37,740 nt of DNA from a virus. Lineage: Duplodnaviria > Heunggongvirae > Uroviricota > Caudoviricetes. Both the position numbers and the translations under genes were made by a program. The notes beneath the pieces were generated by a model. That model did no database searches, was not told the DNA's origin, and was given only the letters and a program-made list of their open reading frames with translations. Within the stretch, counting starts at the first letter, position 1. Every line of letters begins with the position of its first letter. This document shows positions 12,843-37,680 of this stretch, piece by piece. The stretch covers positions 1-37,740 of IMG/VR virus record IMGVR_UViG_2778261277_000009; one strand, 5' to 3'.

Positions 12843-12945
12843 TTACGCCCAAATTATGGTGGGGCGTGATGGGGAGGCTTCGGCCTGCTGGTTTCACAAT
12901 CGCCAGTCTGTCAACCCTGTCACGTCCTGCCACCTGTTTGACAGC
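12843..12945 (+). ncRNA. c4: c4 antisense repressor RNA region (approximate boundaries)
   Basis: Several hairpins upstream of icd; one loop (UUCACAAUCG, 12890-12899) is complementary to GAUUGUGA at the icd ribosome-binding site (12968-12975). Position matches P1 c4. Confidence 0.4.
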
Positions 12946-31780: not shown

Positions 31781-33795
31781 GAGAGCTGTGCTATGGATCT
31801 GTTTGCAGTGGAATTGAAGCCGCGAGCATTGCCTGGGAACCGTTGGGTATGCGTCCGGCGTGGTTTGCTGAGATCGAGCCTTTTCCATCTGCCGTTCTTG
31901 CGCACCGCTGGCCCCATGTCGCCAACCTTGGCGACATGACAAAACTCGCCCAAAAAGTCCAGGCAGGAGAAATTGAAGCCCCTGATATGCTCGTCGGGGG
32001 TACGCCTTGTCAGGCATTCAGTATCGCGGGCTTACGTGGTGGGCTTGATGATGAGCGCGGCGCGCTAACTTTGAAGTATGTGGAGCTTGCAAATGCAATT
32101 GACGACAAACGGGCTGAGTCCTTCCTCAAACCAGCAGTTATCGTCTGGGAAAATGTCCCAGGAGTCCTGTCATCAGCAGATAACGCGTTCGGATGTTTCC
32201 TTGCCGGATTGGCTGGAGAAGATGCGCCATTCGAACCTGGTGATCGACCTGAATCACGAAAAAGTAATACGTTCTGGCGGTGGGATGTCAAAACCGGTTG
32301 CCATGCTCCAAAGTGGCCGCAGTGTGGTTGTATTTATGGACCGCAGCGAAAAGTGGCCTGGAGAATCCTTGATGCCCAATACTTCGGAGTGGCACAACGA
32401 CGCCGACGCGTGTTTGTTGTCGCAAGTGCTCGAACAGACCTCGATCCCGCAACGGTACTTTTTGAGTTCGAAGGCGTGCGCCGGAATATTGCGCCGAGCA
32501 GAGGCGAGGGGAAGGAAACTACCAGATATACTTCAAACATCGCTATCAGAACTTGCGATGATACAAACATAATTGCCATGGCACATGGGCAAGGAGGGGC
32601 TGAGATAAAAACCGATAATTCGGCACCAACTTTGACATGTAACCATGAAGCACCAATTGTATTGCTCGGCGACGGTAGAATGCGCCGTCTTACCCCTGTC
32701 GAATGTGAAAGGCTGCAAGGTTTTCCTGATGGGCATACGTTGATCCCGACGGAAAAGCGTAAAAAAGTTAATTCAGATGAACTGGCATATCTTCGCAATC
32801 ACTATCCAGATTTAAGCGAAGAAGAGGCCGCGATGCTTGCAGCTGACGGACCGCGTTACAAAGCGATCGGCAATAGTATGGCAATACCAGTAATGTGCTG
32901 GATTGGAGATCGGATTACTAAGGCCGTATGTCGGCAGAAAGAAGGAAGTGAAACAAAAGAGCGAAAAGTTAAACCAGCGGCAGAATTCGAACGGTCCATA
33001 TTCAAATGGGCTGGTGGAAAATTTGGTGTTCTGGAACAAATCTTTCACTATTTGCCAGAAGGGAAGCGCCTGATTGAACCTTTCGTTGGTGGCGGAGCTG
33101 TCTTCATGAATGCCGGATACCAGGAAAATCTGCTAAATGATGTGAATGCTGACCTGATTAACTTTTACAAGACTCTGCAACGCGAGGCGCATTCACTTAT
33201 CACTCTGGCACATCGTTTCTTCCTGGACTACAACACCCAGGAGGGATTCCTGGCAGTACGGAATGCGTTTAACAAACAAGTCTATGATGATTTACATCGC
33301 GCAGCGGCGTTTTTGTTCCTGAACCGACATTGTTTTAATGGATTGACGCGCTACAACCAGGCCGGTGAGTTCAATGTCGGTTATGGGAAGTATAAAACTC
33401 CGTATTTCCCATTACAGGAGATGGAAGCCTTCCTCGGTGCGGAAGGGCGGTCTGAGTTTGTATGCGGTGATTTTGCAGCAGTGATTGAAGCTGCCGGAGA
33501 AGGAGATGTCATCTTTTGCGATCCGCCGTATGAACCGCTCCCCAATACAGAGGGGTTTACGAACTATTCCGGTCATGACTTTAAGTTTGAAGAGCAAAAA
33601 CGCCTGGTGTCTCTGTTGACGGATGCTCATCGCCGAGGTGCAAAGGTACTCATTACTAACAGTGGCGCGCCAAACGTCAGAGAACTTTATCAGGACAGTG
33701 GCTTCAGAGTGGAACCTCTCTTTGCCAGACGTTCTGTGTCTTGTAAGGGAGACACTCGTGGTGTTGCTCATGACGTTATGGCTATATTGCTCTAA
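31777..33795 (+). CDS. dmt: bifunctional DNA methyltransferase: N-terminal C5-cytosine MTase fused to C-terminal Dam-like N6-adenine MTase
   Basis: GTG start overlapping the rdgC stop; C5-MTase motifs [11 protein letters not shown] (PCQ), ENVPGV (ENV), QRRRVFVVA; C-terminal FKWAGGK and DPPY motifs. Confidence 0.9.
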
Positions 33796-33815
33796 TAAAT
33801 TTATTAGTGTAATAT
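33786..33815 (+). promoter_or_regulatory. C1 operator (perfect consensus, Op72-like) overlapping a sigma70-like promoter toward the tRNA/ban region
   Basis: ATTGCTCTAATAAATTT exact (33786-33802), followed by a partial inverted half-site; -35 TTGCTC, 17-nt spacer, -10 TAATAT (33810-33815). Confidence 0.7.
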
Positions 33816-33989
33816 CACCTCAATGAATCGTGATTTATAGAGCGATTTAGCTGTTAGCCGCGACAGGCGCGGCGGCAAGTATGGCGGGGTAGTGACTCCT
33901 TCCCCATCATGACGCCGAGTTGCCAGGTTGACCATACGCCTAAGTGGCAACACCGAAGTGCGTTACGAGCTTCCAGTTTGCCCATCTTC

Positions 33990-34015
33990 GGGTGGGCGTT
34001 TTTTTCAGGGTTTTC
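33990..34015 (+). terminator. strong rho-independent terminator about 190 nt downstream of the operator/promoter
   Basis: GCCCATC-UUCG-GGTGGGC stem with tetraloop followed by G and seven T. Confidence 0.7.
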
Positions 34016-34471
34016 GTCATGGTTAGCGACTTTGCGGCGGTTTAGAAACTGACCATTAAAGTAAATGCAAACGATGATCTGATGATGGTAGCGGCCTAAG
34101 AAGCCAGACGCCACGGGGTATGAGTCGTCCCCCGTCAAAAAATCGACCGCAGAGTGTCCCCGTCTGTGTATTAGGGAACGGGGAGGCACAACAGGTAAGG
34201 GCGCTGGTTCGATTAACCAGATGAGCGAGAAGGGGTCATCTTTTTGGTCAGCGTCCTTACCTGTTACGTCCTTTTTCATTCTGCGTAACAGCAATTGCTT
34301 TTAGCAATTTGAAGATAACGTCCTACTACGGGGGTATCCCGTCATGCTGAAGGCGCTAATCACGCTGGAAGCCAGGGTTGTGCATCCCCTGTTACCGAAT
34401 TGCAGCCAGGGCGCGGTGCGCCGAAAAGCATACGGAGGTGGAAGCCCTCGCCGGAGACGTACCCGGCAAGT

Positions 34472-34547
34472 GATGGTGTAGCTCAGCGGTTAGAGCGGTT
34501 GACTGTTAATCAACGGGTCGATGGTTCAAATCCATCCACCATCGCCA
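34472..34547 (+). tRNA. tRNA-Asn (anticodon GTT)
   Basis: Hand-folded cloverleaf: 7-bp acceptor GATGGTG/CACCATC, D-arm TAGCTCAGCGGTTAGAGC, anticodon loop CTGTTAA, T-loop TTCAAAT, encoded CCA. Confidence 0.85.
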
Positions 34548-34549
34548 AT

Positions 34550-34625
34550 GCCGGTTTAGCTCAGTTGGTAGAGCGCCTGCCTTGTAAGCAGGATGTCAGC
34601 GGTTCGAGTCCGTTAACCGGCACCA
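34550..34625 (+). tRNA. tRNA-Thr (anticodon TGT)
   Basis: Cloverleaf with acceptor GCCGGTT/AACCGGC, anticodon loop CTTGTAA, T-loop TTCGAGT, encoded CCA; starts 2 nt after tRNA-Asn. Confidence 0.85.
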
Positions 34626-35188
34626 GCACAACAGGTAAGGGCATTCTCCCTTATAGGGCTTGGCTTAAATGCATCGAGTGCTCTTACCGTTGTGATGAAG
34701 TGCAGCTCTTTGAAGCAACCAGAAGATAAGCATCTGGCTTCACAACATAAACCGCAGGAACGACCAATAAACGGTAGTCCGTATGGAGAACACCCCGTTG
34801 AGGAAGAGGCCTGGCCGGAACCGTAACCGGCGACTGGTAATGTGTGTAAATGGAGCGAAATATGTGGGCGTTTAACGGGATACGGGTTGTAACAGCGATT
34901 ATTAACGGCGAACTTAAGTATTCACGTTTCGAGACAAATGAACGTGATGGGAAATGTATTGGTGTGCGGTTAGTAAGAGAATACGCATAACAACTACAAC
35001 GTTGAGAACACTGGCGTAACGGGGTCATATCCCAATCTATGAATAAATGTTGCGTTGCAGCGTGACAACCAGTGTTCTCAACATTGTGGTGAATGCACAG
35101 GCTGATGTGCCGCAACTACAGTAGTGCGCGCTTTGCGGGGCTTGCTACAACCCTGTGTCGGAGTTCAGCACCGACCATCACAATCACT

Positions 35189-35275
35189 GGAGAGTAGGGA
35201 GCATGGTGCTCAAACGGTCTTGAAAACCGTCCCATTGCGCAAGCGATGATGGTTCGATTCCATTACTCTCCGCCA
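35189..35275 (+). tRNA. tRNA-like element, class II (long variable arm), anticodon-arm identical in type to tRNA-Ser(UGA); atypical D-arm
   Basis: Perfect 7-bp acceptor GGAGAGT/ACTCTCC plus G and CCA; anticodon stem-loop ACGGT-CTTGAAA-ACCGT; T-arm GATGG-TTCGATT-CCATT; 17-nt variable region; D-arm only 4 bp with a 5-nt loop. Confidence 0.4.
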
Positions 35276-35538
35276 GTGCAACGTTAAGAGTATTTGGCTA
35301 ATTAAGCGAATGCCGGAAGCAGAACCGGATCACCAAATGCGTACAGGCGTCATCGCCGCCCAGCCAGCCAAGTGCTCTTACCATTGCGGTGAATGCGGCT
35401 ATGCGCACGCGGAACAGTTAAAACAATCCTCCTTAGTGGTTAAGTCAAACATCCCGGCGTTAATTGTTAACTGGTTAACGTCACCTGGAGGCACCAGGCA
35501 CCGCAGCTTTTTTATTCGTTAAATAATGGAGTGAGAGG

Positions 35539-36972: not shown

Positions 36973-37680
36973 ATGTCTGCATCCCCTCTTGAATCCATGC
37001 CAAATTCCCTTAGTGCAGAACAAGCTGTGCTTGGTGGCTTAATGCTTGATAACTGCCGCTGGGATGAAGTTGCAGATCGTATAGTTGCTGATGATTTTTA
37101 TACCAGTGCTCATCGTGAAATTTTCAGTGAGATGGAGAGGTTATTAAGTCATGGCAAACCGATTGATTTGATAACACTTGCTGAAGCACTTGAACAGAAC
37201 GGTAAATTAGAACGCGCCGGTGGTTTTGCGTACCTTGCGGAGATGTCAAAGAACACGCCCAGCGCGGCAAATATTTGTGCTTATGCGGATATCGTTCGTG
37301 AACGCGCGGTTGTTCGTGAAATGATTTCCGTCGCAAATGAAATAGCCGAAGCTGGATATGTGCAGGATGGCAGGGGCAGCAATGAATTGCTGGATATGGC
37401 CGAGCGCCGCGTTTTTGAAATAGCTGAAAAACGACAAAAGAGCGGTAGTGGTCCAAAAGATATCGCCAGCATTCTCGATGCAACGGTATCTCGCATAGAA
37501 GAGTTGTTTCAGCGACCGCATGATGGTGTAACGGGGCTTGATACCGGATTTACCGATCTCAATAAGAAGACGGCAGGACTTCAGCCGTCCGATCTCATTA
37601 TTGTCGCCGCCCGCCCATCGATGGGGAAGACCACGTTTGCGATGAATCTCGTCGAAAATGCCGCAGTTCGTAACGATTAG
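36973..37680 (+). CDS. ban: DnaB-family replicative helicase Ban, interrupted by an in-frame TAG at 37678-37680 (frame continues to the window end)
   Basis: N-terminus SAEQAVLGGLMLDN...ISVANEIAEAG...SMGKTTFAMNLVENAA is DnaB-like; the TAG sits where DnaB has a Lys, and downstream codons read PVLVFSLELPSHQLMLRSLA in the same frame. ATG at 36973 has GGAG 5 nt upstream. Confidence 0.8.
   Translation: MSASPLESMPNSLSAEQAVLGGLMLDNCRWDEVADRIVADDFYTSAHREIFSEMERLLSHGKPIDLITLAEALEQNGKLERAGGFAYLAEMSKNTPSAANICAYADIVRERAVVREMISVANEIAEAGYVQDGRGSNELLDMAERRVFEIAEKRQKSGSGPKDIASILDATVSRIEELFQRPHDGVTGLDTGFTDLNKKTAGLQPSDLIIVAARPSMGKTTFAMNLVENAAVRND

What the first reader, a model, noticed from the sequence alone, without database searches (positions are those of the whole stretch)
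33816..34015. Operator-controlled promoter followed by an ~190-nt untranslated transcript ending in a strong terminator
The perfect C1 operator and promoter at 33786-33815 is followed by about 190 nt with no credible ORF and then a textbook terminator (7-bp GC stem, UUCG loop, T7) before the tRNA genes and ban. This predicts either a C1-repressed small RNA or a leader/attenuator gating read-through into the tRNA-ban operon.
Basis: inference. Interest (0 to 1): 0.4.

Follow-up and report, generated by a model that had tools for sequence, protein, structure and literature searches.

The report
P1 ban-leader RNA with DicF-precursor fold
Just downstream of a repressor-controlled promoter, this P1/P7-type phage-plasmid encodes a roughly 184-nt non-coding RNA ending in a strong terminator. 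Its folded core is the same conserved RNA domain that sits in front of the cell-division inhibitor RNA DicF in most E. coli prophages, so the locus is mostly already annotated but contains an uncharacterised RNA fold.

Summary
A perfect C1 operator (33786-33802) and its inverted partner overlap the P1ban promoter, which is annotated in P1 as Op72ab/P1ban. About 184 nt of non-coding sequence follow, ending in a 7-bp, UUCG-loop, U7 terminator (33980-34005). Next come the tRNA genes and ban.

The interval is not anonymous. P1's GenBank record already marks a "dicF-like region" here. The similarity is not to DicF itself, and Rfam's DicF model does not hit. It is to the ~130-nt domain immediately upstream of DicF in lambdoid prophages, found in 4425 of 5426 complete E. 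coli genomes. That domain is the 5' part of the known 190-nt long DicF RNA.

It has a covariation-supported multi-helix fold and no Rfam family. In the loci sampled it was nearly always followed by a terminator-ended RNA. P1 and P7 differ only in one hairpin, whose structure is preserved.

Most likely, Pban makes a discrete C1-repressed structured RNA by termination, and read-through feeds the tRNAs and ban. The function of the domain is unknown. Homology to the HK022 put antiterminator was tested and not found. This is a P1-family member of a known RNA unit, and interest is moderate.

The parts
33786..33813 (.). Bivalent C1 operator: Oban-a at 33786-33802 (+) and Oban-b at 33797-33813 (-). 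This is the former Op72ab.
   Evidence: Exact and 2-mismatch matches to the operator consensus, 5 in the window against 0.21 expected. Annotated at the homologous positions in P1 and P7.
33787..33815 (+). P1ban promoter: -35 TTGCTC at 33787-33792 and -10 TAATAT at 33810-33815. The inferred start is near 33822. The predicted P2ban has -35 at 33770-33775 and -10 at 33796-33801.
   Evidence: Transferred from the P1 GenBank annotation by an exact offset. Not called by the generic consensus scan. The start site is inferred.
33824..33849 (+). Predicted 5'-proximal stem-loop of the transcript.
   Evidence: RNAfold gives -7.0 kcal/mol, z = -1.9. The sequence is invariant in window, P7 and P1. The prediction rests on a single sequence and is weak.
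33837..33969 (+). Conserved structured RNA domain ('module'), homologous to the 5' domain of the 190-nt long DicF RNA. H1 is 33857-33873. H2a is 33873-33876 paired with 33914-33917. H2b is 33886-33905 with a pyrimidine-rich loop at 33890-33901. H3 is 33919-33951 with the conserved loop UGACCAUAC.
   Evidence: Covariance model R1 scores 114.8 bits, E = 4e-41, with a single copy in the window. BLAST shows 80-83% identity to prophage copies over 33858-33955. Pair counts are 93.8-96.6% paired, against 33-62% when partners are slid; 8 pairs change on both sides; 0 of 500 shuffles reach the covariation score. No Rfam family matches.
33952..33979 (+). 28-nt linker ACCGAAGUGCGUUACGAGCUUCCAGUUU, specific to the P1 family. 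It occupies the position held by DicF-type seed regions in prophages.
   Evidence: Nearly invariant in P1-type elements. Absent from phage D6, where homology begins at TTTGCCC. No DicF model hit. No supported target was found.
33980..34005 (+). Intrinsic terminator: a 7-bp stem with a UUCG loop at 33980-33997, G at 33998 and U7 at 33999-34005.
   Evidence: Terminator scan. Fold z = -4.7. Conserved in P1, P7 (both T6) and D6.

Best explanation
The interval 33816-34015 is the leader of the P1-family ban operon.

When C1 repression is lifted, RNA polymerase starts at P1ban, near 33822. It transcribes a short 5' hairpin, a ~110-130-nt four-helix RNA domain and a 28-nt linker. In most rounds it probably stops at the strong intrinsic terminator ending at 34005. 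The product would be a ~184-nt non-coding RNA. Polymerases that read through continue into ~460 nt of conserved non-coding RNA, the tRNA genes and ban. The terminator therefore also acts as an attenuator, and it probably ends dmt transcripts coming from upstream.

The structured domain is a homologue of the 5' domain of the 190-nt long form of DicF RNA from lambdoid prophages. In prophages the 5' end of that unit is made by RNase III cleavage. In P1 the promoter sets it directly, and there is no DicF moiety.

I infer that the domain is the functional part of the P1 RNA and is a stable, early-expressed structured RNA. The variable pyrimidine-rich loop of H2b is the likely specificity element. 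The molecular target is unknown.

Shown: the sequence features, the homology, the fold and the coupling to a terminator. Taken from the literature: the homologous unit accumulates as a 190-nt RNA, and ban is C1-controlled. Inferred: the P1 start site, termination efficiency, stability and any trans function.
For: - Operator, promoter and terminator are verified.
- P1's record annotates Oban-ab, P1ban and a 'dicF-like region' at the homologous place.
- BLAST finds window 33858-33955 at 80-83% identity in 4425 of 5426 E. coli genomes, 61 phage records and 506 plasmids.
- In K-12 Qin the match lies between ydfC and dicF and ends about 25 nt before DicF.
- The literature describes a 190-nt DicF species with an RNase III-made 5' end and a 53-nt species made by RNase E. 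The 190-nt form accumulates when RNase E is inactivated. Subtracting 53 from 190 places the 5' end 1-6 nt before the closing helix of the domain.
- The fold is supported by covariation.
- A stable hairpin plus T-run follows within about 115 nt in 127 of 129 copies, with at least 8 different 3' RNAs.
- All 123 DicF copies sampled have the domain upstream.
- P1 and P7/window differ only in a ~35-nt patch, H2b plus the top pair of H2a, and pairing is preserved.
- D6 keeps the terminator and the tRNA block but lacks the domain. P1 has the domain but no DicF.
- ban is induced less than other C1-controlled genes.
Against: - There are no RNA data for P1 or P7. The start site, the termination efficiency and a discrete 184-nt species are all inferred.
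- Single-sequence folding energies are unremarkable, with z about -1.6 to -1.9.
- Most sequences used for covariation are closely related prophages. The shuffle control can therefore be optimistic, and much of the covariation comes from a few lineages.
- The search pattern forced part of the H3 loop and the H2a region to be conserved.
- The closing helix seen in prophages is only 5 of 8 pairs in the P1 type.
- No target was found for the H2b loop, the H3 loop or the linker in the P7-like genome, ftsZ or the other loci held.
- In K-12 the long form behaves as a precursor of DicF, so the domain could be only a processing scaffold.
Confidence: 0.6

Rival explanations
1. The domain is a cis-acting processive antiterminator RNA that works like HK022 put. 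It would modify RNA polymerase so that it passes the terminator just downstream and transcribes the long, largely untranslated tRNA-ban operon, or dicB-recE-xis-int in prophages.
For: - In six annotated lambdoid contexts it lies in the repressor-controlled early-left operon, where lambda has nutL/N and HK022 has putL, and no N gene is annotated nearby.
- In phage cdtI it follows a strong PL-like promoter.
- A terminator nearly always follows, with kilobases of genes beyond it.
- HK022 putL is also followed directly by a terminator-like hairpin.
- P1 must transcribe more than 3 kb past a strong terminator to reach ban.
Against: - The covariance model finds nothing at HK022 putL or putR even with filters off, and BLAST finds no HK022 hit.
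- There is one copy per phage and no PR-side copy.
- The fold has four helices and ~130 nt, against put's two stem-loops and ~70 nt.
- K-12 Northern blots detected ydfABC-dicF but no longer read-through species.
- D6 has the same terminator and tRNA block without the domain.
- ban is induced weakly.
Confidence: 0.15
2. The domain is only a biogenesis scaffold, a pro-sRNA 5' domain that insulates, stabilises and positions RNase E or RNase III cleavage. The active regulator in P1 would be the 3' ~50 nt (linker plus terminator hairpin plus U-tail), acting as an Hfq-type sRNA analogous to DicF.
For: - In K-12 the 190-nt form accumulates and the 53-nt form disappears when RNase E is inactivated.
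- Domain and 3' RNA were coupled in nearly every locus sampled, while the 3' RNAs vary.
- The P1 3' end has the hairpin and U7 typical of Hfq-binding sRNAs.
- The linker is nearly invariant in P1-type elements.
- Genes of the ban operon are relatively up in an hfq mutant.
Against: - The P1 3' part is not DicF-like.
- Its hairpin belongs to the D6-shared tRNA-operon block, not to the domain unit.
- Pairing with ftsZ is no better than for shuffled sequences, and no complementary site was found in the phage.
- The linker has no AU-rich RNase E-type stretch like the one before DicF.
- The structure-preserving replacement of H2b between P1 and P7 argues for constraint on the domain itself.
Confidence: 0.2
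3. This is an ordinary gene-end terminator. It exists mainly to stop dmt transcripts and to insulate the tRNA-ban block. The 190 nt would be a passive 3' UTR or leader carrying a decaying remnant of a prophage dicF locus.
For: - dmt ends at 33795, only about 185 nt upstream, with no other terminator in between.
- DicF itself lies in the 3' UTR of ydfC.
- D6 has the same terminator behind different upstream DNA.
Against: - The domain is kept intact in about 500 P1-type plasmids.
- Substitutions are compensatory, and a hairpin was replaced with its structure preserved, rather than showing decay.
- Pban fires directly into it.
Confidence: 0.05

Closest known systems
Long (190-nt) form of DicF RNA from the dicBF operon of the Qin prophage, E. 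coli K-12 (Faubladier 1990; Ragunathan et al., bioRxiv 10.1101/2023.04.14.536235)
   Same: The ~100-130-nt 5' domain is homologous at 80-83% identity, has the same covarying helices, and is followed by an intrinsic terminator. Both are transcribed from a phage-repressor-controlled early promoter, with downstream genes needing read-through. Total lengths are similar, about 184 and 190 nt.
   Different: The P1 type has no DicF moiety, and Rfam RF00039 does not hit it. Its 5' end would come from transcription initiation, not RNase III cleavage. The closing helix is poorly conserved. The H2b hairpin has a different sequence. The downstream genes are tRNAs and a DnaB-type helicase rather than dicB.
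P1 GenBank annotation (NC_005856): Oban-ab (Op72ab), P1ban/P2ban, 'dicF-like region' 68791-68892
   Same: It is the same locus. The window is 93% identical to P1 and 95.5% identical to P7 over 1 kb, and the operator and promoter are identical.
   Different: The annotation names neither an RNA gene nor a terminator. Its 'dicF-like' span covers H3, the linker and the terminator. The real similarity is to the flank upstream of DicF, not to DicF. This window carries the P7-type H2b.
HK022 putL/putR antiterminator RNAs
   Same: Both are structured, promoter-proximal RNA elements in an early phage operon of N-less lambdoid phages, with a terminator just downstream.
   Different: No sequence or structure similarity is detectable. 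The element here occurs once per genome rather than twice. Its architecture is four helices and ~130 nt against two stem-loops and ~70 nt. No functional data exist.
sRNAs made by early termination inside operons or from 3' UTRs (DicF, SroC)
   Same: Both have a dual output: a terminated small RNA plus read-through mRNA.
   Different: Here the RNA starts at its own promoter and is dominated by a large structured domain rather than a short seed plus hairpin.
P1/P7 C4 antisense RNA (Rfam RF01695; present in this window at 12852-12937)
   Same: Both are P1-family regulatory RNAs. From general knowledge, P1 and P7 C4 RNAs differ in a specificity loop on a conserved scaffold, which resembles the H2b difference seen here.
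   Different: The fold and sequence are unrelated. No complementary target is known for H2b.

Membership tests
DicF sRNA (Rfam RF00039) | Match to the RF00039 covariance model (gathering score 48 bits) | tested here: not met
   No DicF hit in 33700-35400 even at E <= 10. The same search gives 76.7 bits on Qin DicF.
DicF sRNA (Rfam RF00039) | Antisense complementarity to the ftsZ translation start region | tested here: inconclusive
   The duplex energy of the P1 3' RNA with ftsZ -80..+60 is no better than for shuffles (fraction 0.54-0.85). The method is crude, and DicF itself reached only 0.087.
5' domain of the 190-nt long DicF RNA ('dicF-like' prophage unit) | Sequence homology to the segment immediately upstream of DicF | tested here: met
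   80-83% identity over ~98 nt to Qin and thousands of prophage copies. Covariance model score 114.8 bits, E = 4e-41.
5' domain of the 190-nt long DicF RNA ('dicF-like' prophage unit) | Shared secondary structure (H1, H2a/H2b, H3) kept by compensatory change | tested here: met
   93.8-96.6% of cells are paired, against 33-62% when slid. Changes on both sides occur in H2a, H2b, H3 and the closing helix. The closing helix is only partly kept in the P1 type.
5' domain of the 190-nt long DicF RNA ('dicF-like' prophage unit) | Followed within about 50-115 nt by an intrinsic terminator | tested here: met
   In the window the hairpin starts 28 nt after H3. A stable hairpin plus T-run was found in 127 of 129 copies. 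In DicF-type loci the crude detector stopped at the internal U-run of the DicF loop.
5' domain of the 190-nt long DicF RNA ('dicF-like' prophage unit) | Transcribed from a phage-repressor-controlled early promoter | tested here: met
   C1 operator and P1ban in the window. Positions downstream of DicA, C2 or cI repressor genes in six prophage and phage loci. This rests on annotation and position, not on expression data.
5' domain of the 190-nt long DicF RNA ('dicF-like' prophage unit) | 5' end made by RNase III; processed by RNase E to a short sRNA | not testable with these tools
   Known for Qin. In P1 the promoter lies about 25 nt before the domain, so RNase III would not be needed.
HK022-type put antiterminator RNA | Sequence and structure similarity to putL/putR (two stem-loops, ~70 nt) | tested here: not met
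   The covariance model finds no match at the put sites with filters off; the best score is 6.3 bits and lies elsewhere. No BLAST hit to HK022. Features of put are taken from PMC9378689.
HK022-type put antiterminator RNA | One element downstream of each early promoter (putL and putR) | tested here: not met
   Single copy in the window and in the 21.9-kb early/regulatory segment of phage mEp460 that was searched.
HK022-type put antiterminator RNA | Suppresses termination through the RNA polymerase beta' zinc-binding domain | not testable with these tools
   Needs read-through assays and rpoC mutants.
P1 C1 operator | 17-bp asymmetric consensus ATTGCTCTAATAAATTT | tested here: met
   0 and 2 mismatches at 33786-33813. 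Five sites in the window against 0.21 expected.
Intrinsic (Rho-independent) terminator | G+C-rich hairpin followed directly by a U-run | tested here: met
   7-8 bp stem, UUCG loop, U7. Energy -12.8 kcal/mol, z = -4.7. Efficiency was not measured.

The most novel reading that the evidence does not exclude
The ~130-nt domain, not DicF, is the truly conserved 'gene' of the dicF locus. It would be an unclassified, autonomous phage RNA family that is absent from Rfam. It is present in about 80% of complete E. coli genomes and about 500 P1-type plasmids, and it would be made immediately on prophage derepression. On this reading it has its own activity, through the invariant H3 loop and the hypervariable, anti-Shine-Dalgarno-like H2b loop. 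Candidate activities are acting on RNA polymerase or termination in cis, or on ribosome-binding sites or a host factor in trans. The P1 family would show this activity in pure form, because it keeps the domain without DicF.
Probability: 0.35. Interest if true: 0.7.

Novelty: new member of a known kind. Interest (0 to 1): 0.4.

Why it matters
For P1 biology, a strong terminator 184 nt after Pban would explain why ban is the most weakly induced C1-controlled gene. It would mean that tRNA and helicase expression is set by read-through. It also predicts an abundant early RNA that nobody has characterised.

More broadly, what is conserved around dicF across E. coli prophages and P1-type plasmids is a structured upstream domain, with interchangeable terminator-ended RNAs attached to it. 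DicF studies normally use the 53-nt RNA alone, so a function of the long form may have been missed. The P1 family, which has the domain and no DicF, offers a clean system to test it.

Tried and rejected
- Rfam at gathering and at E <= 10 found no family for 33816-34015 or for the Qin copy.
- The single scan of GTDB genomes with a 15-base pattern returned almost only chance matches and was wasted.
- Homology to put was tested with a covariance model, filters on and off, on HK022. The result was negative.
- A second, PR-side copy was looked for in the window and in phage mEp460. None was found.
- Pairing of the P1 3' RNA with ftsZ was no better than for shuffles.
- Targets for the H2b loop, the H3 loop and the linker were sought in the window, the rest of P7, ftsZ and the prophage loci. 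Only chance-level hits appeared. A 10-bp match at window ~34226 does not co-vary between P1 and P7. An 11-nt match in P7 terB is absent from this window.
- A terminator/antiterminator alternative pairing was considered, between the domain's GGCGG and the DicF terminator arm, or CCCAUC in the P7 type. It is not conserved across variants and was rejected by inspection.
- A pseudoknot between the H2b loop and the downstream GAGGA is not conserved in the P1 type or other variants.
- The minus-strand 146-aa ORF is broken in P1 and P7.
- A tRNA-like reading was considered because the domain forms a four-way junction. ARAGORN and the tRNA model do not call it.
- Lobocka 2004, Faubladier and Bouché 1994 and Murashko 2017 are not held in the library. 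I could not check what they say about the region upstream of dicF.

Full report
**What the window is.** The window is a P1/P7-type phage-plasmid. A 1-kb query around the finding is 95.5% identical to P7 and about 93% identical to P1. The window also carries the C4 antisense RNA of the P1 family.

**The observation.** The finding lies directly after the stop codon of dmt at 33795. The operator consensus ATTGCTCTAATAAATTT matches perfectly at 33786-33802. A 2-mismatch inverted partner lies at 33797-33813. The window has 5 such sites against 0.21 expected by chance. In the P1 record the homologous bases are annotated as the bivalent operator Oban-ab (former Op72ab), the sigma-70 promoter P1ban and a predicted P2ban. 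P7 is annotated in the same way. Transferred by an exact offset, the P1ban -35 is 33787-33792 and the -10 is 33810-33815. The start is therefore near 33822, which is an inference. A generic promoter scan does not call this promoter, so the promoter rests on the P1 annotation.

The terminator is real and strong. It has a 7-8 bp stem, a UUCG loop and U7. Its energy is -12.8 kcal/mol with z = -4.7. The mechanical ORFs in the interval are not conserved. The 146-aa minus-strand ORF, which some plasmid records call a hypothetical protein, is broken in P1 and P7. The T-run is T7 here and T6 in P1 and P7, which shifts the frame of the plus-strand ORFs. tRNA-Asn, tRNA-Thr, a tRNA-Ser-like gene, a tRNA(CAT) and ban follow downstream.

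**What is inside the 190 nt.** No Rfam family matches, even at E <= 10, and that includes DicF. P1's record nevertheless marks a 'dicF-like region' here. BLAST explains this. Window 33858-33955 is 80-83% identical to an element found in 4425 of 5426 complete E. coli genomes, with up to 8 copies per genome. It is also in 61 phage records and 506 plasmids. In K-12 it lies in the Qin prophage between ydfC and dicB. It ends about 25 nt before the Rfam-defined DicF. The conserved part is therefore the segment upstream of DicF, not DicF.

Published Northern blots and primer extension show two DicF species. One is 190 nt, with its 5' end made by RNase III. The other is 53 nt, made by RNase E. The 190-nt form accumulates when RNase E is inactivated (bioRxiv 10.1101/2023.04.14.536235, section 6, citing Faubladier 1990). 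Subtracting 53 from 190 puts the 5' end of the long form 1-6 nt before the first helix of the conserved element. The element is therefore the 5' domain of the known long DicF RNA.

**Structure.** I collected 129 copies from IMG/VR and the annotated loci. On 24 diverse sequences I proposed a closing helix and three arms, H1, H2a/H2b and H3. In this alignment 93.8% of cells pair, against 33-61% when the 3' partners are slid. Eight pairs change on both sides, and 0 of 500 shuffles reach the covariation score. A covariance model built from this alignment realigned 100 copies, 55 of them distinct. That gave 96.6% paired with the same pattern.

Three caveats apply. The sequences are close relatives. 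The search pattern fixed part of the H3 loop and the H2a strand. The model-fitted alignment leans towards the structure.

The P1 type keeps H1, H2a, H2b and H3. It shows U-A to C-G exchanges in H2a and H3. Only 5 of 8 pairs of the closing helix are kept. The H2b arm is the variable part. There are at least seven stem and loop designs, all hairpins with pyrimidine-rich loops. Most loops contain UCCU or CUCC, which resembles an anti-Shine-Dalgarno sequence. Across 290 aligned bases, P1 and P7/window differ almost only in a ~35-nt patch, made of H2b and the top pair of H2a. Pairing in that patch is preserved.

**Context.** In six annotated lambdoid loci the domain lies in the early-left operon. 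It sits downstream of the DicA, C2, cI or LexA-type repressor gene and upstream of dicB or kil, recE, xis and int. No N gene is annotated nearby. In phage cdtI it follows a terminator and a near-consensus PL-like promoter.

The domain is nearly always followed by a hairpin plus T-run (127 of 129 copies). At least eight different 3' RNAs occur, including DicF, a cdtI type, a pPE4 type and a P1 type. My detector stopped at the internal U-run of DicF in DicF-type loci, where the true terminator lies about 25 nt further on. Conversely, all 123 DicF copies sampled have the domain upstream. There is one copy per phage.

Phage D6, a P1 relative, keeps the same terminator hairpin and the tRNA block. 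Upstream of it D6 has unrelated, hairpin-rich DNA and no domain. In P1, therefore, the domain plus a 28-nt linker is joined to a terminator that belongs to the tRNA-operon block. No DicF-like moiety is present.

**Mechanism.** The best-supported reading is a leader with two outputs. On loss of C1 repression, Pban makes a ~184-nt structured RNA by termination. Polymerases that read through transcribe ~460 nt of very conserved non-coding RNA, the tRNAs and ban. The simple scan found no consensus promoter between the terminator and ban, although that scan also misses P1ban. ban is induced less than ssb, dmt or kilA after P1 induction (PMC4713147). In an hfq mutant, trnA, ban and dbn are relatively up (bioRxiv 10.64898/2025.12.28.696737). 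Both observations are compatible with attenuation but do not prove it. The terminator probably also ends dmt transcripts.

P1 keeps the domain without DicF, and H2b was replaced with its structure preserved. I therefore favour the view that the domain is itself functional. I could not find a target.

**Rivals.**
- A put-like processive antiterminator is attractive from position. However, the model does not match HK022 putL or putR, and there is no second copy. K-12 blots showed no read-through species beyond dicF, and D6 manages without the domain.
- A pure processing scaffold for a 3' sRNA fits the K-12 RNase E data. It fits the P1 3' part poorly.
- A passive 3' UTR remnant is contradicted by the pattern of conservation.

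**Novelty.** The operator, the promoter and a 'dicF-like region' are already in P1's annotation, and the 190-nt DicF species has been known since 1990. Three points appear not to be described in the sources I could read. The shared element is a covarying structured domain distinct from DicF and is absent from Rfam. It is coupled to interchangeable 3' RNAs. P1-type elements carry it without DicF, directly behind a C1-controlled promoter. I could not read Lobocka 2004 or Faubladier and Bouché 1994, which may cover part of this. I file the finding as a new member of a known kind, with moderate interest.

Noticed in passing
window 34006-34471: The ~465-nt ORF-free stretch between the leader terminator and tRNA-Asn is 94-100% identical in this window, P7, P1 and D6. 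It is better conserved than the leader itself. It has no Rfam match and may hold further structured RNAs.
   Followed up: partly
window 34186-34265 and 34626-34690: The 17-nt direct repeat GCACAACAGGTAAGGGC occurs before the tRNA pair and immediately after tRNA-Thr. The first copy is the 5' arm of a long hairpin (17-bp arms at 34190-34206 and 34249-34265), and by eye the second also starts one. They may be processing stems, for example for RNase III, bracketing the tRNAs.
   Followed up: no
window 34993-35090 and 35189-35275: A 22-bp inverted repeat lies upstream of an 87-nt tRNA-Ser(UGA)-like gene. Rfam scores that gene as tRNA-Sec-like at 45.1 bits, just under the gathering score of 47. D6 annotates the homologue as not called by tRNAscan-SE.
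   Followed up: no
window 37678-37680: ban carries an in-frame TAG where P7 Ban has lysine (AAVRND*PVLVF against AAVRNDKPVLVF). In this element the helicase gene is either an amber mutant or a pseudogene.
   Followed up: partly
L298 (phage D6) 800-1500: In place of Op72 and the domain, D6 has ~750 nt of unrelated, hairpin-rich non-coding DNA ending at the same terminator hairpin.
   Followed up: no
L003 2671-2880 (Qin) and L008 1665-1760 (cdtI): Directly after the DicF-type terminator, prophages carry a long-stem element. In Qin it gives a sub-threshold STnc100 hit, and AGUGAAUUUUGUGAUG pairs with CAUCACAAAAUUCAUU. This probably holds the RNase III site that makes the 72-nt DicF 3' end.
   Followed up: no
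A1/A2 alignments, just 5' of the closing helix (e.g. L008 1480-1490): Lambdoid copies are preceded by GUGCUCUC or GUGCGCUUCC, which faintly resembles boxA (CGCUCUU/UGCUCUUUA). The P1 type lacks it. This was seen by eye and not tested.
   Followed up: no
window 33854-34294 (-): Some RefSeq plasmid records annotate a 'hypothetical protein' over the leader. The corresponding ORF is disrupted in P1 and P7 and is probably a mis-annotation.
   Followed up: yes
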